A stretch of DNA of 64,000 bases, from assembly GCA_000182565.2 (NCBI GenBank), contig KQ257461.1; one strand, given 5' to 3'. The DNA is from Spizellomyces punctatus DAOM BR117. Its lineage: Eukaryota. This document shows positions 28,801 through 61,244 of this stretch, in pieces. The notes beneath the pieces were generated by a model. It was not told where the DNA came from and ran no database searches. It worked only from the letters and a program-made list of their open reading frames with translations. Position numbers and translations under genes: made by a program. Within the stretch, counting starts at the first letter, position 1; each line of letters starts with the position of its first letter.

Positions 28801-31800
28801 AATGCTCAAGACAGCAGTTGACACGTGCATGGAGCAGATTGGGCACTACGATGAGCAGGTTGGTGCCACGTCCTGGAATTCGATTGATCATGCATAGTGA
28901 TTCAACTGGTCTCTCCACAGTTGGACGAATTGAAAGCGATATGGCAACTGATGTACGATTACGAAATGCCGTTGGATGAGGAGATTAACGATCTGTACTG
29001 GACAACATGTGCATGGCCAGTCAAAGTGGCTGATGAACTGGACCGGGCTTCGGAACGGTTGACCAATGCTCGAGCACGGATTATGAGCCAGGTAACAAAG
29101 TTAAAGCTGACATCCATTTCTCTTTCTCAATTCTCATGTGTGCGTAGATCGAGATTGACAAGGAGTTTGTCATTAACTCTGTTCAAGCTTACCGAGAAGA
29201 AGTCCAAACGTACCTTGCATCCGCGGATAATATTGAGCGGTACAGCGATATGGTCAATCGCGTTCACTACCTTCGCGAACGCATTGACCGGGTGAAATCT
29301 CTGGGAGAGGCTATTCCATTGCAAGAACAACGAATTGGACTACCAGTGACCTCCCTTATCGAACTTAAGACGTTAGAGAATGACTTCCAGCCATACGAGG
29401 AACTATGGAAGCTAGTGGGTGGTGTTCGGGACCGTTTGGCAGAGTGGCTGGACTCGTATTTTGCGGATTTGGATGCACAGACGATGTTGGAGAATGTCGG
29501 AAGTTGGAAGAGTACTTTGAAAAAACTGTCTCCTGTTTTCCTGGATGCACCAAAACCCCAGAGTATTACCATGAGCATTGAAGCCGAAATCCTGGATTTC
29601 GATCGGTATATTACTATTATTACATCGCTGCGTAACCCGGCCCTACGTGACAAGCACTGGATGGAAATGTCCAAAATTGTTGGTATTACGCTGCGGGATA
29701 TAGCGGGGTTGAAACTCCGGCAAGTGCTAGAGCTTGACTTGGAATTGGTCCAGGATATATTAGCAGAGATTAGCAGGGAAGCCAGTTCTGAGTGGGAATT
29801 TGAGCATGAGCTGGATGTGATGCGCACAGAGCTGTCTTCCCGGAAATTTGTCGCTGTCCAGTATGTTACGCCAGAGTATTACCTTATCGAGAATTTTGGG
29901 GAGGCCATGTCGGTTTTTGAAGACCTTTTGATACGCTCAGAAAGCCTGGCGCGAAGAGCGTACGTTGAAGTCCTCCGCACGAAAATCGACGGATGGATGA
30001 AACGACTCTGCAAATGCCAAGAAACCCTCCAAGAATGGCAGAACTTGCAAATGATCTTTGCAAAGCTGTACCCGGTTCTTCGCCTCTCTGGTGAAATATC
30101 GGCTCTCACTCGTGACCAAATAGAAAACTTTATTGCCATCACAAAACTGATGAGCATTCTTTCGGATGTGGTCACCAAGAACAGGAAATTCAGCACGGTT
30201 CTTCTTCGGAGTGATCTACATGATATGATTGCCGGTGGACTGGCAAGAGTGGACATTGTCATGAAGGGCATCATAAAACTCATTGAAGCAAAACGGGAAA
30301 AGTTCCCGCGGTTTTGGTTTTTGACCAACGATCAGGTGTTGGAGATGGTGTCCTGTTTACCGGATGTCCGAGCTTTGAATCCCCTTTTGGGCAGGTGTTT
30401 TGATGGAATATCGCAGTTGGTGTTGGGCCAAGTTGAAAGAGAGGCTGCATCTCTATATCCTACCGTAATTGAATTTGATAGTGGAATTCCTGAAGATGTT
30501 GCTGGTGGTTCAGACCATGATATTGCGGTTGATCGGTCAAGGGAGGCTAGTTACCTATCAGCTGGTGCAGGACCAGAAATCAAAATAGGGGAGACGCTGA
30601 CCTCCATTCCGAGTTTTTACACGAAGTTATCCTCATCCTTCTCCATTGGGTCACGGAGACGAACGATGCAGCGTGTACAAGAACCCGAAGTTCACGTCCC
30701 AAGAAACCTCAAGTATGTTTTGAGCGAGTCGATGGGTATCGAGATTCTGGGTGTTGAGAGCTTTGAAGGGGAGCAGTTGATGCTTCGGACACCAATTTCA
30801 GTGACGACTAAAGTCGAGGACTGGTTAGCAGAGCTGCAAGATGGTTTACGGGACAACCTCCGCAAACAGATTGCATTGGCGTTGGACAATTCGTCCGAAA
30901 CAATTCCTCTTGCCTCATGGCTTCAGTCATACCCGCTCCAAGTAATCCTGGTCGCCGCCAACATCAAATGGAGCACATATCTCAAAACATGTATATCCCA
31001 AGGAACGGATTCTGCTATCAAAGAATTTCGCAAGAGCTTGTGCAAGGAGCTCGATGACATTATTGGACTGTTGAAGCATAATACACCGCCTCTTACTCGC
31101 CAAGTAATCGAAACCCTCATCCTTGCCCTGTCTTACGTGATTGAAACGACAAATGGAGATTTACCCAACCTCACTGCACCGGACTGGATCAGTCGTCTCC
31201 GATATGAGATGAGCGAGGATGGGATTGTGAACGTCCACATGATGCATCATACAGTCAAATACGGGTACGAGTACAATGGAACATCGCCGAGGCTGGTTAT
31301 CACACCGGGTATCAACCGATCCATGGCACAGATCATGACCTTGCTTCGGTACGCTGCTAGTCCTGTGCTCACGGGTTCGGGTCTACAACGTGAGACTCTA
31401 TGCGAGTTGTCAAAGGCCGTCGGTGTACGATGCGTTTTGGTAGAGTGCGCAGCAGAATGGGTTCCTGGTATTCTCTCCCGGATTATATCGGGGATGCTGA
31501 GTACGGGGTGCTGGCTCTGTTTGGAACATCTTGATCGACTTGCTGAGGAGGATCTGTCAGTAACTGCGCACCATATCGGAACGGTGTATCGAAACTTTGG
31601 TATGGCTTCCAAAGCACGGCGCTTCAAGTTTGCCTATGATGGAAGAGAGTTTGATGTACATGATACTACAGCTGTTTTTGTCACATATGGGGGTCAAAAG
31701 CCCTANNNNNNNNNNNNNNNNNNNNNNNNNNNNNNNNNNNNNNNNNNNNNNNNNNNNNNNNNNNNNNNNNNNNNNNNNNNNNNNNNNNNNNNNNNNNNNN

Positions 31801-34800
31801 NNNNNCCCGACCTGTGGCGGATAGGGATGCCCGACATGAAAGTGTTTGTTGAGACGGGCTGATTGCGCGTGGATTCCAGCGTGCTTCTATCCTTGCCAAG
31901 AAGATAGTTGCCGTTTTTAAGAGTCTTGGAGGGATATTCCCCACCTCCAATGAGTATGATTTTTCGGTTAAGAAAGCGGCGGCTGTTGTGCACGCTGCCG
32001 GGACGCTTCTGGTGAGAAAGGGGTACGAGGTTGCGAAGGAGGTTTCGACTATTGTGGAGGCGCTGAATATGGTCGTGGGACCACAATTGCGAAAGAGGGA
32101 TACGTCGCTTCTACAGGATGTCGTTCGGGAAGTCTTTGGCGAAGATCCGAAAGGCATATCCATGATAAGGATAGAGCAAGCTGTCCAGAAAGCAGGATTG
32201 GAGCTCGGAATACCCATATCAGACTACCTCCTCCAAAAATCTATCCAGTTATACGAATCTCTCACACATTTCCAAACTATTTTCATTGTCGGCGATGCTA
32301 TGTCTGGCAAATCGACGCTGATCCACCTTCTCCACCATGCCTTGGATTCGTTGGACAAGGACTCTATCGTAAAGTCATTACAAGTCTATGACTGTCATGC
32401 TGGAGCCATGGACGAAAAACAATTGGGCGGATACTATGATGAAGCCACCAGTCAGTTCATTCAAGGCGTGCTCCCCACCATTGTATCCAAGGCCAACGAG
32501 CATGCAATGACGGTGGAAAGAAACCAGGAAGAGGACGACAGATCTGAAAATCTTGTCGGATCATCGTGGATTGTAATGGACGGTGACGTACCCGCCCATG
32601 CAATGGAACGAGTGGGTGAGCTAGAGAGAGATAAAACCGTTTTCTCATCCATATCAACCGCAATGCATCTCGGCAAGTCTGTCAGAATTCTACATGAAGC
32701 AACGTCTCTTAAACACGTATCGCCCGGAATCGTCTCCCAAAGCGCCATCATACACATGAACGGGGATCAAATCTCGATGGACCATATTCTCCAAACTGAG
32801 CTCAAAGATCTCCGACCACATCTAGAGACCCACTACAGTTTTATTCAAGCCATGCAGCGTCACATTGGAAACGCCATACTGGATTTCATATCCTCTACAA
32901 CCACGCTCTTGGCCTCCAAGCGGATTCTGGTCGCCCAGGCTTGGCGTATATTTGCTTCAGTCTTTGATGAGTTGACCGTGGACGGTTTTGGGCGGTTCAC
33001 GGTGTCGGAAAAGCTTGCATGGATCGTAGCAAGCTATATTACGGGAATATTGTGGTCTGTTGGGTGTTTTCCGGATATGAAGACGAGACGAAAATTGGAT
33101 GCGTTTATCAAGACGCAGGTACTGACGACGGCTCTTACCGAGCTGCGCGAAGAGGCTAAATTAGACGACGGGTGCTTCAAGGTCGTGGTGGAGGTTCCTA
33201 CAGATGGGACCGTGTACGATTATTACTTTGATGCACGGCTCTTGCGCTGGAAGCCTTGGAAAACACTCCCCAATGAGCAGGATCTTGCTGTGACTGTACC
33301 GCCCGGTCTGGAAGGGGCAGTCGCAACGGACGACATTATCCGAGTTTCCTATTTCATGCGACTATTGACCAATCGAGGACATCGGGTGATGGTGGTTGGT
33401 GCGCCGGGAACAGGAAAATCTACTGCTGTGCGATGCGGGTTGAATGAGGAGAACTTGGAAGGATATAATGGTGTACCAGTCTTGGTATCCCTGGTGAGTG
33501 AAACGCGAGCTAAGGATCTGAAAGCACAGTTGGAGAAGAGGTTGATACAGAAACGCCGGGGAACGATCGGATGCGTGGCTGGGAAGAGGCTATATGCATT
33601 TATAGACGATGTTGGGTATGAGAATGACGGTGCTGATTCTGTGTTGGAGTTCTGGAGGACGTGGATGGAGCGGGGAGGTTGGTATGGTGGCCAGAATGGG
33701 ACAGACTGGGTGACAGTTGAAGGGCTGTCGATCGTTTCTGCCATGAACTTAAATCCAGGGACAAGCACAAGGATTTCCCCGCGATATCTTCGTCACTTTG
33801 TTCCTATTGCCGTTCACGACGATTTTTGCGCCAAGTTAGAAGAAATGACCGGCAATCTTTTAACGGATTCATTGGTGAACATTATGGGTCCCGCGCAGGA
33901 TGGATTCCATGTATCACTCCTAAAGGCGACCCAGGAACTCTTTACAACCGTTCAAACCCTCTTTCTCCCCACCCCCGTTACACCGCAATACAGATTCAAC
34001 CTTCGGGACGCTTTGAGCGTCCTGCGCGCTGTGGCAAATCAAGCAGAGACAGAAACTCTGACTACTGCTATCGTGCATATGTGGGGACATGCGTGCCATC
34101 GGGTGATGCGTGATCGCTTAGTGGAAGAGGATGCAAAAAAGCGTTTCGACGGCGCATTTAAAGAGGGTATTGAGAAATGGTTTGATGGCATCGCCTATCG
34201 CGATGTGTTTGCAGAGGATGATCCAACGATTTATATGCCGAGTCATACGGGGTGGAGGGGAACGTTAACGCAGCTGAGAAAGTCCTGGAAACCCATTGAG
34301 AGCATCTACGAGTTTAGTCAGCGACTCTGTTTTGATTTGCCAAGTTTGGGGGATACCAGTCCAGAAGACGTTCGCTCCATCATGCATGTTGATGGTGTCG
34401 GAACCGCGCTACGGATCTGTCATGGGTTACGTGAGGGACATGTCGTCCTCTGTGGGTATCATCATGGGGACCGGTTCCTGCTGACCCAACTTGCAGCTTG
34501 GATGGCGGGGATGGTGGCGATTGAGCACCGGTATCCAATGCAAATAAACGAAACGCTGGCATCCGTCTTCAAAACTGCAATTCAACAAGACCAGTCTATT
34601 GTACTCTATCTAGAATGGAATGAAACTATTGCAACGTCATCTGAACTCTGCTCGGTCCTGAAATGGGGATATTCGGACCACATCTTCGAAACCGTTCTTA
34701 AAGGAAATATACTGGAAGGTTTTAAGGAGCGGTTAAAACGTGGACGTGACTCGGCACCAGTGACAGACGACACTGTTTACCATCGCTTTGTCTCTTACAT

Positions 34801-46624: not shown

Positions 46625-46724
46625 NNNNNNNNNNNNNNNNNNNNNNNNNNNNNNNNNNNNNNNNNNNNNNNNNNNNNNNNNNNNNNNNNNNNNNNNNNNN
46701 NNNNNNNNNNNNNNNNNNNNNNNN
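46625..46724. other. Assembly gap (100 N)
   Basis: Run of exactly 100 N. Confidence 0.99.
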
Positions 46725-55574: not shown

Positions 55575-56694
55575 GTACCGTGGAAGACACGGGTCCCAGC
55601 TGTATTATCCAACGGGAGATGCAAGTGCAGTAACGCTAATGACAAACCGTTGGGCAGTTAGCGAGTCTTGACGATCCGATGCTTAGTAGAGCTACCGTAC
55701 CGCCGGGCACGTTGCCGACGATCAAGGAGCGGCAAGGGCTCGTCAGCCGTCGCTGTTTTGACTTTTAATCTTCTGTGCAATCTCATCCCCAAAGCAGTCT
55801 TTACGTTACATACTGCTGAATGCCTTTTGCATCATGGCTGCGTTTCCCAACTTTCGCCGAATCTATCAAGACTTTCGCACGCCAGATGAGGAAAAGTCAA
55901 CCGCCAACTCTGCAGTGTTTACGTTCTGCGCATTTTGCGTCATGTGTGCTCTCATGACAGCGGCGAGGAAGGCTTCCTTTGCCGGTGCATGACTTATTAT
56001 CCGGTCGTCCTCGGGTTGTAATGGAAGAGCCATGCAGTGGAAGATTGATTGCGACCGCCTGAAAGCTCTACGGTACCCTGGCATAGCTGTGCGGTTTGTA
56101 GTACACATGAGCCACCTAAGGCCTATTTGATGAAAATCTCTCTGGGCACGCTTTCTGCTTGTGGATATGGTTATACCATGGGTTGCAAACGGTTCTTGAA
56201 GATTCAAATACTATTCTCTCCTCGACACGTTAAAAAAGACCCGTCGCCATTATGTGTATGGTTCACCGCTCATAAGTTCTAAAGTCCCTCCCATGTCAAC
56301 TTTAAGCATTAGCCTACATGTGCTCTTCCTGATCCAAAGTGTTGGACGTCATCCTAGATTGTAATGTCGCTAATTGAAAAAGGATAAAAGTGTAAAATGG
56401 TCGCCGTTGTGAGCAAGCGACTAAGCACCACCAGCCAGCGCGGTCGCTTCTCGTGGCCCAAATTTTTGGGAACTCGGGCACCCGTTTTTCCCTTTGCTGC
56501 TTTCTCCCAGCTCCAAATTGCCATTAAGCAAGGTAGTCTTTCAGCAAACGCTAGACTCGCGTGACGCTGTCACGGCGAGAACAAAACATTCAAGTTTAAC
56601 TGAGAAGATACTCGGAATACACCTATTTTCATTCCCGCAGTTTCAGCCAAGTTTCGCTGAATTGTAATTTACTTGGACCGACTGCGCGATCGCA

Positions 56695-58623
56695 ATGTCG
56701 GCAAACTCTCCATTCAGGTACGTTTCTCATCCCTCAAGCACCACCATGCGAGAAGCTATGGTTTTGCATGTGGTTTAACTCTGCATATTCTTGGATCGAC
56801 AGGTCACTCTCCGTCCAAAAGCTACAAGATGAGTTACGGTTTCGAAAGGTTCATTGTTGTTTTGCAAACAGCTATCATCGAGGATTTTTGGAGACTGAGG
56901 CCGTTTGCTTTTCTTTCTCCTAGTTGCCCATAGGAGGGACGAAAAGTGTGCTAGTTGCGCGGTTGGAAGAATACGAGGGACAACTAAATGCGGATACAGC
57001 ATCAGAGGATGACTCGGATAGAAATGCAAGTAACGGCGCTGCGATAAATCCTGAAGTGGCTGGAGATGCTATTGAAGCTCGTCGAAGAGAGCTTGCAAAA
57101 CAACGAGTTGGAATATCCATATGGAACTCGCCGCTAGTAATCCTTAAATACCTGATATTATATATAAGCGATAGCCTCGTTCTGGGATTGCAGACCATGG
57201 TCGCACACGTATGGGTCGTGGTAGCAATGTTGTGTCTGTTGGTGGCGGGGGTAGCAGTATACCTTGCAGAGGGGCCACATCAAGGGGTGAGCTGTGTTGG
57301 TTGCTGCTAAAAAAGAATTTGCCTAACCATCCCGCATCTATAGACTGTTGCGGTATTGGAATCTCAAGTCTTGTGGTACGGGTGGTGGTTAGTGTTGGGA
57401 ATCGCCTCATCTATTGGACTGGGAACTGGATTGCACACATTCGTCCTTTTCTTGGGTCCTCACATTGCCCATGTTACTTTAACGGCATACCAATGCCACA
57501 GTCTAGACTTTGAAACTCGAGGGCCAGATAGGTATTTACCACCTATCGAATGTGTTCAATGACATTCTACTGACTCCGATCTCTCGTAGTTTTATTTGCG
57601 AGCCATCGGTTGGTCAAGCCGCCACTGCCGCTGTCACTGTATGGCAAATTGCAAAAAAGGTTCGATTGGAGAGCTTTTTCTGGGGGTTGGGAACGTCGAT
57701 CGGAGAGTTGCCTCCATATTTTGTTGCAAGAGCCGCAGCCGCAGCGGGACGTGACGATCAAGGATTTGCCAGTATTGAGGGCCTTCTGGCAAGACCAAAA
57801 TCCGAACGGACAGTTGGGGAGCGTGTACAAGTGGCCATGTACAATCTGATGCAATCGTTAGGCTTCTTTGGCATCCTGCTTTGCGCGTCGGTAAGTTACT
57901 GGACTATACAATTTGTGGCGTTCTTAACCCGATACTTATGATCTGGTGCAGATTCCGAACCCCTTATTTGATCTCGCGGGCATTGTTTGCGGGCATTTTG
58001 GAGTTCCGTTCATGACATTTTTTGGCGCAACGTTCCTGGGGAAAGCAGTCTTCAAAAGTAGCATACAGGTTCGAACGACTGATTTCTCTTGGTTCTTCGC
58101 GAGTCCGGCTGACATTTTGATCACAGACGATATCCGTAATTTTAATGCTTTCGGAAGACATTTTGGCCTTCATATTGACGGAGCTTCAATCTTATGCACC
58201 TACATTACATGACTTCGTGCAAAAGCTCCTGGACGAGCAAGTAAAACGATACCAGAAACGGCCAGATGGCGCTCATGAATTGAAGGTATATAAGCATCAC
58301 ATATCGGTTTGTTTGATGCTGTACGATGCTGAGTAATTTGCCCTGTAGCCTTCCAAATCCAATTATCTTGGCGCTCTATGGAACGCCCTTCTAGTCTGCA
58401 TGATTGGTTATTTTATTGCATCCCTATTAGAATCTTTGGCGATTGCCCAAATGAAGAAGGAGCATGAGCGAGAGCTGCAGCGACTACAAAAACGGGCTCT
58501 GAAAGAGGTATGTGCAATTTGCAAGTCCCTACCACTAAATCCATCATCCTGTGCTGATGCTGACGTTGCTAGCACCGAAAACAAGTACAAACAAATACAG
58601 AGTCGGCTACTAAACTGGAATAA
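56695..58623 (+). CDS. VMP1: VMP1/TMEM49 lipid scramblase with an N-terminal SAP domain
   Basis: [81 protein letters not shown]. Confidence 0.92.
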
Positions 58624-58942
58624 ATGCATCAGTTTGAAAGAAAGGAGTGAGAAGTTTTACCACATAGAGGAGGGGTTTGGATTGTAGCGGAGGCACCTAG
58701 TGCGCTGAGGTTTATTTTGTTTACTTTATTCTCGTTTACAACCGCAATTATCGATCTCGTTTCATTGTGAATATATAGACTAGCCCATTCATGGGTATAC
58801 AAGGAAATGTTGAATGTGCGTTACGATTTTTTTGAACGCTGGGACACTCCTTTCAGGGCGTGCCCTGTACTCGATGATCGGGATATACTGGCTGCTGTGT
58901 ACCCATCTATCTAACCTGATCTATCAACCATTGGGTGCGCCA

Positions 58943-60197
58943 TCATCCGCTGTTTCCATACAGATTCGGATTGGTCACCGGAACGAAAAGCAGCCCAAAA
59001 AGTATAATCCCAAGGATATACGACCCTATCAACACTGTTGCATTATTAGCGAGAATCACCCAGAATGCAAAGATATCTAGCGAATACCAACCGGTTTTAT
59101 AGCGCGGGTATTCATCTATTGCCGAGAAATCAGGGAAGCCCATAACATTGCAAAATATGTGTGAAATGGTTGGAGCTACAACGTGGCCAGTTCTTAGAAA
59201 GAGGAAGGTTGAAAACCAGCCGAACAGCGTCGTGTAGAAGAACTGAAAGACTGAATCCGGAGGGTGAGTTGGCGAAGATGCATGTACAACCAGGAAATAT
59301 TGACCAGTAGAACAGCACACGCACCACCGGATAACAGCGCTTGCTTCAAAGCACGATTTGTTCGCCCTAGTCTGTTGTAGACCTCGTACCCGTGATGTAT
59401 ATGGGCTAATAAACAATTTAGCGATCAGAATGAGCCTGACATCCAACCAAAGTGGTCCTGGACCTACCGATACCAAAACACAGGGGGAGCATGAAAACAG
59501 TCGTCACCGTTTTAAACCCAGCTGCTTGGAACAATGGGACCATACAGGCACGAAAGACAAACTCTTCTGTCAACGGCCCCTAAATTGATTCCTTCCATCT
59601 TCAGTTGACTATATATGCACGGGATGTGACGAGTGGAGTAGCGATTGCCTACTAGCTTGCGAGTGTCGGATCCTCACCACTATGTAGTTCCTCCAAGCCA
59701 ATATGTCGTTCAATTTGTCAAACAGATGTTCTTGAAAGGAAAACTTTCTTTGAAAGGGAAGTGACTCGGCAATAAAGTCGACAGCGAGCGGCCCGAGGAA
59801 GAGGGTCATGGTAAGAAGTAAGGGGAGAACAGCGGCTAGTAGAAAGCCTTTCGGTTTAAGTCCAAGGTGAGCAAGTAGCACTGGTAAACCCTGTGGAAGT
59901 GTGAGTGCTTCATCGGACCATATCTGCGTCAACCTAGTTTTCAGCTACCTCTGTCCCAGTAGGCACAATGCCCACTGAACTCAAGACAAACCCCACAGAC
60001 ACGAACCCCACAGCGCATGTTCCAGCGGCAGCCATGAACCTCCTACGCACAACCCGTGGGTCATCTCGCGGGACCTGTCGTGGAATACCTCCGCGAAATA
60101 CATAGAAAGAGCCGACGAATGTGAGTGTGAGGAGAATGCATGCGAGTATGCTTGTTGTCGCGGAGAGGCGTTGCGAAGCAAGATCCGCGTTGGTCAT
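58943..60197 (-). CDS. RCE1: CAAX prenyl protease 2
   Basis: RDDPRVVRRR, WRNYIV|GPLTEEFVFRACM, FGI|AHIHH, QFFYTTLFGW, HIFCNVMGFP. Confidence 0.92.
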
Positions 60198-60374: not shown

Positions 60375-61244
60375 TTACAAATGCTGGTTATACCAGGCAA
60401 CACACTGCTCAAATGCATCCTTTCGAGCTTTCTGGACTTTCTCGTCCTTGTCATTACCCCGGACCGCAAACCCATGCGCCATCCCTTCATAGCAAACAAA
60501 CTTGTACGCGGGGCCGTTCCCAGTCTTCACTTTCTCTTCTAGTATCTCCTCGCTCGTTTTCCTGTCCGCCGCACTGAAGACATTGTCATATTCTGCACAG
60601 AGGAACAGACCGGGCTTTGTGATTGAGTGTATGTCGGCGGGAACGGAAACTCTGCTAGGGTGCGCAGCGACAAAGCATTTGATCAGGTCCCCGTGGGATT
60701 GGAGAATCGTGTATCGACCTCCCCAGCAGTACCCCACAACCCCGATATCATAACCGTCGTTTTTGAGGCCACCGAGAAACGCATTCCCCAATGGCACAAT
60801 CTTTGAGTCCCCATTTCTCGCCATGAAAGGGATCCCAGATGGGATCACCTTGAGGATAGCCAGTCCACGCTTGATCTGCTCTCCAAAAGTTTTAGGTTGT
60901 TGATAGTCGAGGAGGTCATCACGACCTTCGACTGATATGGCAGTACCCGTGAAAAAGTCGGGAAGGTAGGCGGTGTACCCTGCCTATGCAAGATGTTAAA
61001 CACCTCAATGGCATCAAACGGGCAAACCGAATCCTACCTTGGCGAACGAATCAGCAATCAGTCGTAAATTGACCAGTTCCCATCCGAAAACATCACTGTA
61101 AATTACAACGGCCTTCTTTGGCTTTTCATTTTCGGGAACAGGACGAGCAACGTAGACGTCTAATCCATGGAGCTTTTCGGTGGTACCAGTTGGTGTGCCT
61201 TCGTGAAGGAAACCAGTTCTGCAGCATTCGGGAAGTTCTGACAT
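60375..61244 (-). CDS. Dienelactone hydrolase family protein (Aim2-like), 2 exons
   Basis: ECCRTGFLHEGTPTG, SDVFGW..NLRLIADSFA, GYCWGG nucleophile elbow, AEYD, HGFAVRG. Confidence 0.9.

What the first reader, a model, noticed from the sequence alone, without database searches (positions are those of the whole stretch)
56695..56985. SAP DNA-binding domain fused to the N-terminus of VMP1
Two small exons invisible in the ORF track (56695-56717, 56803-56848) splice in frame to give [41 protein letters not shown], a canonical SAP signature (LxVxxLxxELxxRxLPxxGxKxxLVxRL). The animal VMP1 proteins I know are ER scramblases for autophagy and contact sites without a SAP domain. Inference: a nucleic-acid or chromatin-tethered scramblase, perhaps at the nuclear envelope or the ribosome-rich zoospore ER.
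Basis: partly seen in the sequence, partly recalled or inferred. Interest (0 to 1): 0.7.

Follow-up and report, generated by a model that had tools for sequence, protein, structure and literature searches.

The report
SAP domain on chytrid VMP1
A chytrid fungus gene for the ER lipid scramblase VMP1 really does start with a small DNA/RNA-binding SAP domain, but the same fusion is already annotated and occurs widely in early fungi and invertebrate animals, so it is old and overlooked, not unique.

Summary
Exons 56695-56717, 56803-56848 and 56924-57286 have GT-AG borders and join in frame. The 9-exon, 468-aa product is letter-for-letter SPPG_06717 of Spizellomyces punctatus DAOM BR117, which UniProt already names "SAP domain-containing protein". 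Pfam SAP scores 42.5 bits against a cutoff of 23.9, at residues 7-41. The second half of the SAP and the first conserved VMP1 helices lie in one exon, so the fusion is not a merged gene model.

The fusion is widespread. 38 of the 120 best VMP1 homologues carry PF02037. So do named proteins from Rozella, an aphelid, chytrids, Blastocladiomycota, Mortierellomycota, two ichthyosporeans, a coral, two bivalves, an annelid and a flatworm. A tree of the VMP1 core follows the species tree, with SAP forms on both the animal and the fungal side. One fusion at or before the opisthokont ancestor is the simplest reading. Some "SAP-less" models are truncated annotations.

No paper describing the fusion was found. 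Its function as a nucleic-acid or chromatin tether for an ER or nuclear-envelope scramblase is inference only. RNA reads did not cover the two small exons.

The parts
56695..56717 (+). Exon 1: start codon plus 7 codons and 2 bases. It encodes the short leader and the first SAP residue.
   Evidence: ATG followed by the donor CAG|GTACGT. The leader motif MSxxSP[FY]R recurs in the Spizellomyces, Powellomyces and Geranomyces models. It is part of the annotated protein P0121.
56718..56802 (+). Intron 1 (85 nt, GT..AG)
   Evidence: No RNA read covers it.
56803..56848 (+). Exon 2 (46 nt): first SAP helix
   Evidence: This frame alone hits Pfam SAP positions 4-18. The borders are AG| and |GTTCAT.
56849..56923 (+). 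Intron 2 (75 nt, GT..AG). It ends in an in-frame TAG, so read-through is impossible.
56924..57286 (+). Exon 3: the SAP loop and second helix (to 56977), an acidic disordered linker, a basic juxtamembrane helix and the first hydrophobic helices of VMP1, all in one open frame.
   Evidence: Pfam SAP positions 20-36 at residues 2-18 of this exon. Other VMP1s align from query residues 64-87 onward. RNA depth is 1.2-4.6 on the + strand across this exon.
57344..57531 (+). Exon 4 (VMP1 core)
   Evidence: Model identical to P0121
57590..57890 (+). Exon 5 (VMP1 core with the near-invariant G-E-L-P-P-Y-F segment)
57952..58068 (+). Exon 6 (VTT/DedA segment, P-N-P-L-F-D-L-A-G)
   Evidence: Pfam VTT_dom 22.1 bits on this exon alone.
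58127..58285 (+). Exon 7
58349..58507 (+). Exon 8
   Evidence: Its donor is confirmed by RNA reads.
58573..58623 (+). Exon 9 coding part, with stop codon 58621-58623. The 3' UTR runs to a poly(A) site near 58807.
   Evidence: The joint across 58508-58572 appears in 15 reads with 10 start places. 22 reads carry A-run loose ends at 58807.

Best explanation
This is the VMP1 orthologue of Spizellomyces punctatus (SPPG_06717). VMP1 is a multi-pass ER membrane protein of the VTT/DedA kind, and its animal relatives scramble phospholipids. This protein carries a genuine, conserved SAP helix-loop-helix module at its extreme N-terminus. The order along the protein is SAP (residues 7-41), a flexible acidic linker of about 25 residues, a basic juxtamembrane helix (66-86), then the membrane core.

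Shown: the architecture is real, is encoded partly within one exon, and is shared by VMP1 orthologues across Opisthokonta. The fusion therefore most likely predates the animal-fungal split and was later lost, or missed by annotation, in many lineages.

Inferred: the N-terminus faces the cytosol, or the nucleoplasm if the protein reaches the inner nuclear membrane. The SAP acts as a nucleic-acid anchor. The small extramembrane domain (about 86 residues) would let the protein diffuse from the ER through the pore membrane and be retained on chromatin. That would concentrate some scramblase at the nuclear envelope, by the same logic as HeH/LEM inner-nuclear-membrane proteins.

My odds: real and ancient fusion about 0.9; SAP binds nucleic acid in vivo about 0.45; chromatin or nuclear-envelope retention specifically about 0.25.
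For: **The gene model.** It has 9 exons with canonical GT-AG borders, and its product is identical to P0121 over 468 of 468 residues.

**The SAP domain.**
- Pfam SAP scores 42.5 bits against a cutoff of 23.9.
- The two SAP halves score separately and abut at the splice junction.
- The SAP C-terminal half and the VMP1 N-terminal helices share exon 3.
- In the AlphaFold2 model (mean pLDDT 87.3), H12-21, an 8-residue loop and H30-47 have pLDDT 94-96. Residues 50-62 fall below 50, and a helix follows at 66-86.
- The only PDB sequence hit is the MKL1 SAP domain, 2kvu, E 0.0014.
- The Tho1 SAP domain (4uzw) is at Foldseek rank 7 with probability 0.99, although its E-value is 1.1.

**Purifying selection.** None of the 18 differences from the S. 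'palustris' orthologue falls in residues 1-57.

**Spread of the fusion.**
- 38 of the 120 listed homologues carry PF02037.
- All 12 new cluster representatives tested pass the Pfam SAP cutoff.
- Named SAP-VMP1s come from Rozella, Amoeboaphelidium, Batrachochytrium, Polychytrium, Paraphysoderma, Sorochytrium, Linnemannia, Chromosphaera, Sphaerothecum, Porites, Argopecten, Mya, Owenia and Macrostomum.
- In the 52 SAP-bearing rows of A1 (140 rows) the SAP starts within residues 4-78 and a 5-188-residue linker follows. One listed model left out of A1, P0020, has its SAP at 401-431.
- The core tree mirrors the species tree, with SAP forms in the early branches on both sides.

**VMP1 function.** The scramblase role is taken from PMC8077175 (listing and abstract only) and PMC8386813 (passages).
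Against: - No RNA read spans the junctions 56717/56803 or 56848/56924. The run that was laid is 3'-biased and only about 6% of it was read.
- No binding or localisation data exist for any SAP-VMP1.
- The S. punctatus linker is acidic (1 K/R against 5 D/E) and has no obvious NLS.
- The cytosolic orientation of the N-terminus is recalled knowledge about animal VMP1, plus the basic patch before the first hydrophobic helix. It was not tested here.
- Pfam VTT_dom scores 28.8 bits, below its cutoff of 33.9. Every VMP1 tested, including the marsupial one, also scores below it.
- Parsimony needs at least 16 state changes on 67 rows and cannot by itself tell gains from losses.
- SAP domains in other proteins also bind RNA or proteins.
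Confidence: 0.55

Rival explanations
1. The SAP stays on the cytosolic face of the bulk ER and binds RNA (ER-bound mRNA or ribosomes) or other cytosolic nucleic acid, not chromatin.
For: The best structural neighbour is the SAP of Tho1, an mRNP protein. The function of Tho1 is recalled, not taken from a call. The S. punctatus linker is short and acidic with no NLS-like cluster.
Against: No data either way. Many other SAP-VMP1 linkers carry basic clusters (N-termini printed), which fits either nuclear import or general nucleic-acid binding.
Confidence: 0.2
2. The SAP is a protein-protein or regulatory module that does not bind nucleic acid. It might recruit a partner or gate the scramblase.
For: The domain is small, sits on a flexible tether, and has a net charge of only +2 (7 K/R against 5 D/E).
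Against: Rozella, Amoeboaphelidium and an unnamed relative have tandem SAP copies (two matched stretches each). That pattern is typical of avidity for a polymer. The Pfam match is to the canonical SAP profile over its full length.
Confidence: 0.15
3. The SAP was fused to VMP1 several times independently in fungi and animals, not once in an opisthokont ancestor.
For: SAP is a mobile, very short module. At least 16 state changes are needed on the tree. I did not test whether VMP1 SAPs form one SAP subfamily.
Against: In the SAP-bearing rows of A1 the SAP has the same position (extreme N-terminus) and the same order of parts. SAP forms occupy the early branches of both Holozoa (Ichthyosporea, Cnidaria) and Holomycota (Rozella, aphelid). 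Several 'absences' are truncated gene models.
Confidence: 0.1
4. The fusion is an annotation artefact: two neighbouring genes (a small SAP gene and VMP1) were merged by gene prediction.
For: RNA reads do not cover exons 1-2.
Against: The SAP C-terminal half and the conserved VMP1 start are contiguous in one exon and one ORF, 56924-57286. Exon 3 has no start codon of its own before the first hydrophobic helix. The same architecture appears in independent annotations, in a record whose name has the style of a transcriptome assembly (Sphaerothecum), and on unnamed contigs barely longer than the coding sequence.
Confidence: 0.02

Closest known systems
Vertebrate VMP1 (TMEM49; EPG-3 in C. elegans), the ER phospholipid scramblase needed for autophagosome, lipid-droplet and lipoprotein biogenesis
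   Same: The core is orthologous. The marsupial VMP1 P0116 matches the near-identical S. 'palustris' protein at E 9.3e-91, 40% identity over 86% of the query. The near-invariant VTT/DedA motifs are present. In the core tree the animal SAP-bearing forms group with it.
   Different: The marsupial protein has no SAP and only about 43 residues before the conserved juxtamembrane segment. The window protein has 86, including the SAP.
HeH/LEM-domain inner-nuclear-membrane proteins (yeast Heh1/Src1 and Heh2; animal MAN1 and LEM2). Recalled, not tested here.
   Same: Same design logic: an N-terminal helix-extension-helix nucleic-acid-binding module, a disordered linker, then transmembrane segments. From recall, SAP and HeH/LEM belong to one Pfam clan.
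   Different: The membrane part is unrelated, being a scramblase core and not a two-TM scaffold. No HeH or LEM profile hit at E <= 0.01. The S. punctatus linker is short and shows no NLS. Localisation is unknown.
Soluble SAP proteins with solved SAP domains: MKL1/MRTF-A (2kvu) and S. cerevisiae Tho1 (4uzw)
   Same: These are the closest solved relatives of residues 9-45 by sequence (E 0.0014) and by fold (probability 0.99, TM 0.67 on the target).
   Different: They are soluble nuclear proteins. Here the SAP is tethered to a multi-pass membrane protein.
SPPG_06717 / UniProt A0A0L0HBS1 and its annotated orthologues (for example B. dendrobatidis BATDEDRAFT_37041, Rozella O9G_001712, Linnemannia K457DRAFT_143278)
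   Same: SPPG_06717 is the identical protein. The orthologues have the same SAP + VMP1_C + VTT architecture, and UniProt already labels them 'SAP domain-containing protein'.
   Different: None. This is the same entity, known only as automatic annotation.

Membership tests
SAP domain (Pfam PF02037) | Profile HMM score above the curated gathering cutoff over the whole motif | tested here: met
   P0121 scores 42.5 bits against 23.9, residues 7-41 on profile positions 2-36 of 37. The halves also score separately from the raw exons.
SAP domain (Pfam PF02037) | Two amphipathic helices separated by an extended loop that holds the conserved glycine | tested here: met
   The AlphaFold2 model has H12-21, loop 22-29 and H30-47 at pLDDT 94-96. 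The alignment to the MKL1 SAP keeps the L..EL..R.LP..GTK..L..RL pattern. Tho1 SAP is a Foldseek neighbour. This is a prediction, not a solved structure.
SAP domain (Pfam PF02037) | Binds DNA or RNA | not testable with these tools
   It needs EMSA or anisotropy with residues 1-65.
VMP1 family | Full-length similarity to named VMP1 proteins and placement among them in a tree | tested here: met
   (query P0001, 450 of 468 residues identical to the window protein) gave named VMP1s at E 1e-90 to 1e-112. Phmmer with P0121 found 404 representatives at E <= 1e-30. In the core tree the window protein sits inside Chytridiomycota.
VMP1 family | VTT/DedA domain (PF09335) and VMP1_C (PF27639) | tested here: inconclusive
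   The local Pfam VTT_dom score is 28.8 bits, below the cutoff of 33.9. The marsupial VMP1 (29.6) and every other VMP1 scanned also fall below it. Precomputed PF27639 and PF09335 hits are listed for the cluster representative P0001. PF27639 is not in the local library; its name VMP1_C comes. The near-invariant motif columns are kept.
VMP1 family | ER localisation and phospholipid scramblase activity | not testable with these tools
   Known for human VMP1 (PMC8077175, listing and abstract; PMC8386813, passages).
HeH/LEM inner-nuclear-membrane proteins | HeH or LEM profile match, and the MSC/MAN1-type C-terminal domain | tested here: not met
   Only SAP and VTT_dom were reported for P0121 at E <= 0.01. 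The resemblance is one of design, not membership.

The most novel reading that the evidence does not exclude
The ancestral opisthokont VMP1 was a chromatin- or nucleic-acid-anchored scramblase. Its N-terminal SAP retains a pool of the enzyme at the inner nuclear membrane or the re-forming nuclear envelope. There it would equilibrate lipids between leaflets during nuclear-envelope growth, repair or nucleophagy. Vertebrates, the fly and the tardigrade sampled here, and several fungal lineages later dropped the anchor. This would give VMP1 a nuclear-envelope role that has gone unseen because the usual model organisms lack the domain.
Probability: 0.2. Interest if true: 0.7.

Novelty: new variant of a known kind. 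Interest (0 to 1): 0.4.

Why it matters
VMP1 is studied intensively in mammals (autophagy, lipoproteins, viral replication organelles), and the mammalian form lacks this domain. A nucleic-acid-binding module on the orthologue of many fungi and invertebrates, probably ancestral, points to an unstudied link between an ER scramblase and chromatin or RNA. From recall, S. punctatus can be transformed genetically, which would make the idea cheap to test.

There is also a practical lesson. Tiny 5' exons make automatic annotations drop the domain. One B. salamandrivorans model starts at a methionine inside the SAP. Presence/absence tables taken from proteomes will therefore undercount the fusion.

For this window itself nothing new is added to the public annotation.

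Tried and rejected
- **RNA support for exons 1-2.** No RNA holder was listed by the index. The one raw-read RNA run of the same species label (X9) was laid. It is 3'-biased, about 6% of it was read, and depth is zero over 56648-56821. It confirms only intron 58508-58572 and the poly(A) site.
- **DNA runs.** X3-X5 are genomic contigs that are colinear with the introns, so they say nothing about splicing.
- **Animal SAP-VMP1s by N-terminus.** A search with residues 1-120 of the scallop protein returned only the query itself. The N-termini diverge too fast for a word-seeded search.
- **A second VMP1 copy in this organism.** No whole genome is held for the window, so this was not tested. Only one Spizellomyces cluster appears among the 120 best hits.
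- **Fold search.** Foldseek of the whole model against the PDB gave no match at E <= 0.001, and no VMP1 or DedA structure appeared.
- **ESM Atlas.** The feature search gave no usable hit. The structure search gave a lead only: a 69-member eukaryote cluster, mostly Arthropoda, with VMP1_C in 88% and SAP in 57% of members. This was not verified.
- **Earlier findings of this scan.** None exist for this genome.
- **Literature.**
  - VMP1 + 'SAP domain': 0 papers.
  - 'vacuole membrane protein 1' + SAP: 9 papers. None concerns a SAP domain by title or abstract; in the pancreatitis papers SAP stands for severe acute pancreatitis (listing only).
  - VMP1 + chytrid: 1 paper, on Volvox RNA-seq.
  - 'SAP domain' + scramblase: 2 unrelated papers.
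  - Synonym search: none of the 10 papers listed, out of 23 found, holds 'SAP domain'.
  - The DedA-superfamily preprint has no SAP-domain mention; the two 'sap' matches I could see in the passages are 'sapiens'.
  - Limits: subscription journals and supplements were not searchable.
- **Read-through of intron 2.** Rejected, because the intron ends in an in-frame TAG.

Full report
**1. What is in the sequence**

The region 56695-58623 (+ strand) holds a 9-exon gene. The exons are 56695-56717, 56803-56848, 56924-57286, 57344-57531, 57590-57890, 57952-58068, 58127-58285, 58349-58507 and 58573-58623 (stop included). Every intron is 48-85 nt and has GT..AG ends.

The 468-aa product is identical, residue for residue, to P0121. 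This is SPPG_06717 of Spizellomyces punctatus DAOM BR117 (XP_016606364.1), and UniProt A0A0L0HBS1 names it "SAP domain-containing protein". So the window comes from that chytrid or a near-identical strain, and the public gene model already contains both small exons.

**2. Is the SAP real and really fused?**

- Before any joining, the exon-2 frame alone hits Pfam SAP at profile positions 4-18 (12.6 bits). Exon 3 alone hits positions 20-36 (16.7 bits). The two halves meet at the predicted junction.
- The whole protein scores 42.5 bits, E 4.4e-11, against a gathering cutoff of 23.9, at residues 7-41.
- The only PDB chain found by sequence is the SAP domain of MKL1 (2kvu, E 0.0014, residues 9-45).
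- An AlphaFold2 model was built on a 140-row alignment that I selected from the 256 proteins then held. Its mean pLDDT is 87.3. It shows helix 12-21, an 8-residue loop and helix 30-47 at pLDDT 94-96. A low-confidence linker follows (50-62 below 50), then a helix at 66-86, then the membrane core.
- Foldseek against the PDB found nothing at E <= 0.001. The Tho1 SAP domain (4uzw) appears at rank 7 with probability 0.99 but E 1.1.
- The fusion does not depend on splice prediction. Exon 3 is one open frame that encodes the SAP second half, the linker and the conserved start of VMP1 (other VMP1s align from query residues 64-87).
- Exon 3 begins right after an in-frame TAG and has no ATG before the first hydrophobic helix, so it needs an upstream start exon.
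- The exon-1 peptide motif MSxxSP[FY]R recurs in the Spizellomyces, Powellomyces and Geranomyces models.
- None of the 18 differences from the S. 'palustris' orthologue (450 of 468 identical) lies in residues 1-57.

**3. RNA evidence**

The index listed no RNA holder. I laid the one raw-read RNA-seq run with the same species label (X9) and three DNA-like runs.

X9 is strongly 3'-biased: depth is 31-106 at 58388-58822 and 0-5 upstream. It confirms the last intron, with a joint that skips 58508-58572 in 15 reads from 10 start places. It also shows a poly(A) site near 58807 (22 reads). There is low + strand coverage of exon 3 (1.2-4.6). There is none in bins 56648-56821, so the two SAP junctions remain untested. 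This is neither support nor refutation.

**4. How widespread is the fusion?**

*Homologue search.* A search with the S. 'palustris' protein gave 2654 hits at E <= 0.001 among 8000 scored candidates. Of the 120 best that were listed, 38 carry a precomputed PF02037 together with PF27639 and/or PF09335.

*In-box check.* An HMM that I built from 8 VMP1 SAPs is fitted to this group. It recovered all 38 of these plus P0121, and added 7 more. On a Pfam re-check of those 7, one reaches the cutoff (P0035, 24.0 bits). Three miss it narrowly (22.8-23.8), two are weak or partial (17.3 and 14.7), and one has no Pfam SAP hit.

*Exhaustive search.* Phmmer with P0121 against 1.84 billion cluster representatives gave 2110 hits at E <= 0.001, and the best 150 were listed. 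Of those 150, 14 scored at least 15 bits on my HMM. All 12 new ones that I put to Pfam pass the SAP cutoff, at 32.4-80.0 bits.

*Named SAP-VMP1s:*

| Side | Group | Organisms |
|---|---|---|
| Holomycota | Rozellomycota | Rozella allomycis |
| Holomycota | Aphelida | Amoeboaphelidium protococcarum |
| Holomycota | Chytridiomycota | Eight Spizellomycetales models, Polychytrium, Batrachochytrium dendrobatidis, B. salamandrivorans |
| Holomycota | Blastocladiomycota | Paraphysoderma, Sorochytrium |
| Holomycota | Mortierellomycota | Many species |
| Holozoa | Ichthyosporea | Chromosphaera perkinsii, Sphaerothecum destruens |
| Holozoa | Cnidaria | Porites lutea |
| Holozoa | Mollusca | Argopecten irradians, Mya arenaria |
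| Holozoa | Annelida | Owenia fusiformis |
| Holozoa | Platyhelminthes | Macrostomum lignano |

An ESM-Atlas structural neighbour is a 69-member, mostly arthropod, cluster with VMP1_C in 88% and SAP in 57% of members. This is an unverified lead.

*Without a SAP on Pfam scan:* marsupial VMP1, Sycon, Ramazzottius, Capsaspora, Drosophila willistoni, barley, Rhizophagus, Zopfochytrium, Synchytrium and Gaertneriomyces.

*Position.* In the 52 SAP-bearing rows of the 140-row alignment the domain starts at residues 4-78, and 5-188 residues of linker precede the conserved juxtamembrane segment. P0020, which I left out of that alignment, has its SAP at 401-431. Rozella, the aphelid and one unnamed relative have two SAP stretches.

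**5. One origin or many?**

I built a quick maximum-likelihood tree of the VMP1 core only. It has 67 named rows that I chose from the 256 proteins held. I dropped unnamed, partial and near-duplicate rows, and I excluded the SAP and linker columns. The alignment has 373 columns, the model is LG+G4 and support is SH-aLRT.

The tree recovers Holozoa (support 93), Metazoa (97), Holomycota (89) and the main fungal phyla. The SAP-bearing animal proteins sit with the marsupial VMP1, so they are orthologues and not a separate paralogue. SAP forms occupy early branches on both sides (Ichthyosporea and coral; Rozella and aphelid). The SAP state needs at least 16 changes, and parsimony cannot tell gain from loss.

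Some "losses" are clearly annotation artefacts:

- One B. salamandrivorans model (P0025) begins at a methionine inside SAP helix 2 of another model of the same species (P0131). The two share 322 of 337 aligned residues.
- Mortierella sp. GBA35 (P0051) matches Linnemannia elongata residues 187-637 at 426 of 448 identical, but lacks the N-terminus.

Unnamed SAP-bearing proteins fall inside Metazoa (P0114, and P0119 as sister to the marsupial protein with support 98) or among the fungi. One fusion at or before the opisthokont ancestor, followed by losses and under-annotation, is the simplest reading. I did not test it with a SAP-domain phylogeny.

**6. How it probably works**

*Established.* Human VMP1 is an ER phospholipid scramblase (PMC8077175, listing and abstract only; PMC8386813, passages).

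*Shown here.* This is its orthologue, with a SAP on a flexible tether.

*Inferred.* The N-terminus faces the cytosol. This rests on recalled topology of animal VMP1 and on the basic helix 66-86, which has 5 K/R before the first hydrophobic helix. The extramembrane part is small (86 residues). An ER protein of that size could reach the inner nuclear membrane by diffusion and be retained by SAP-chromatin binding. This is the diffusion-retention logic known for HeH/LEM proteins (recalled, not tested).

*Alternatives.* The SAP could bind RNA on the cytosolic ER face, or it could mediate protein interaction. The S. punctatus linker is acidic and shows no NLS, which weakens the nuclear reading for this species. 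Other lineages have basic clusters in the linker.

**7. Novelty**

The architecture is visible in public databases for this very gene. Eight literature look-ups found no paper that mentions it. For these I saw listings and abstracts, plus passages of the DedA-superfamily preprint. Subscription journals and supplements were not searchable.

It is an under-noticed variant of a well-known protein, and it is not a new kind of system.

**8. Verdict**

Interest is moderate (0.4). The lead is real, ancient and testable. It is already annotated, far from unique to this organism, and has no functional evidence.

Noticed in passing
window 55762-55989 (+): A short open frame just upstream matches Pfam Emr1 (ERMES regulator 1, PF17237) at 38.4 bits against a cutoff of 25. 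It is another small ER/mitochondria-contact protein next to VMP1. I did not work out its gene model.
   Followed up: partly
window 58946-59503 (-) and 60378-60983 (-): The downstream neighbours lie on the minus strand. One is an Rce1-like type II CAAX prenyl endopeptidase exon (34.9 bits). The other is a dienelactone hydrolase family exon (74.8 bits). Minus-strand RNA reads (depth 16.5) begin right after the VMP1 poly(A) site, so the two genes converge.
   Followed up: partly
window 58608: In RNA run X9, 18 of 81 reads have G instead of T. The change is synonymous (third base of an alanine codon, 5 codons before the stop). It could be an allele or a strain difference. No DNA run of the same strain was compared.
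   Followed up: no
window 31706-31805 and 46625-46724: Two runs of exactly 100 N, which are assembly gaps.
   Followed up: no
P0025, P0059 and P0131 (Batrachochytrium salamandrivorans): Three different public gene models exist for the same VMP1 gene. One starts at an internal methionine inside the SAP, and one skips part of the core. This shows how small 5' exons make the SAP vanish from proteomes.
   Followed up: yes
P0020 (Phlyctochytrium planicorne, 790 aa) and P0205 (Drosophila willistoni, 725 aa): These are over-long VMP1 models. P0020 has the SAP at residues 401-431, after a 400-residue extension. P0205 has ankyrin repeats before the VMP1 core. Both look like mergers with an upstream gene. 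I did not check this.
   Followed up: no
P0199 (Rozella), P0089 (Amoeboaphelidium), P0152 (unnamed): These have tandem SAP copies (two matched stretches) ahead of the VMP1 core, where most lineages have a single copy.
   Followed up: partly
window 56474-56560 (+): There is low + strand RNA depth (1.4) about 135-220 nt upstream of the ATG. It may be the 5' UTR or an unrelated transcript. There is no coverage between it and exon 3.
   Followed up: no
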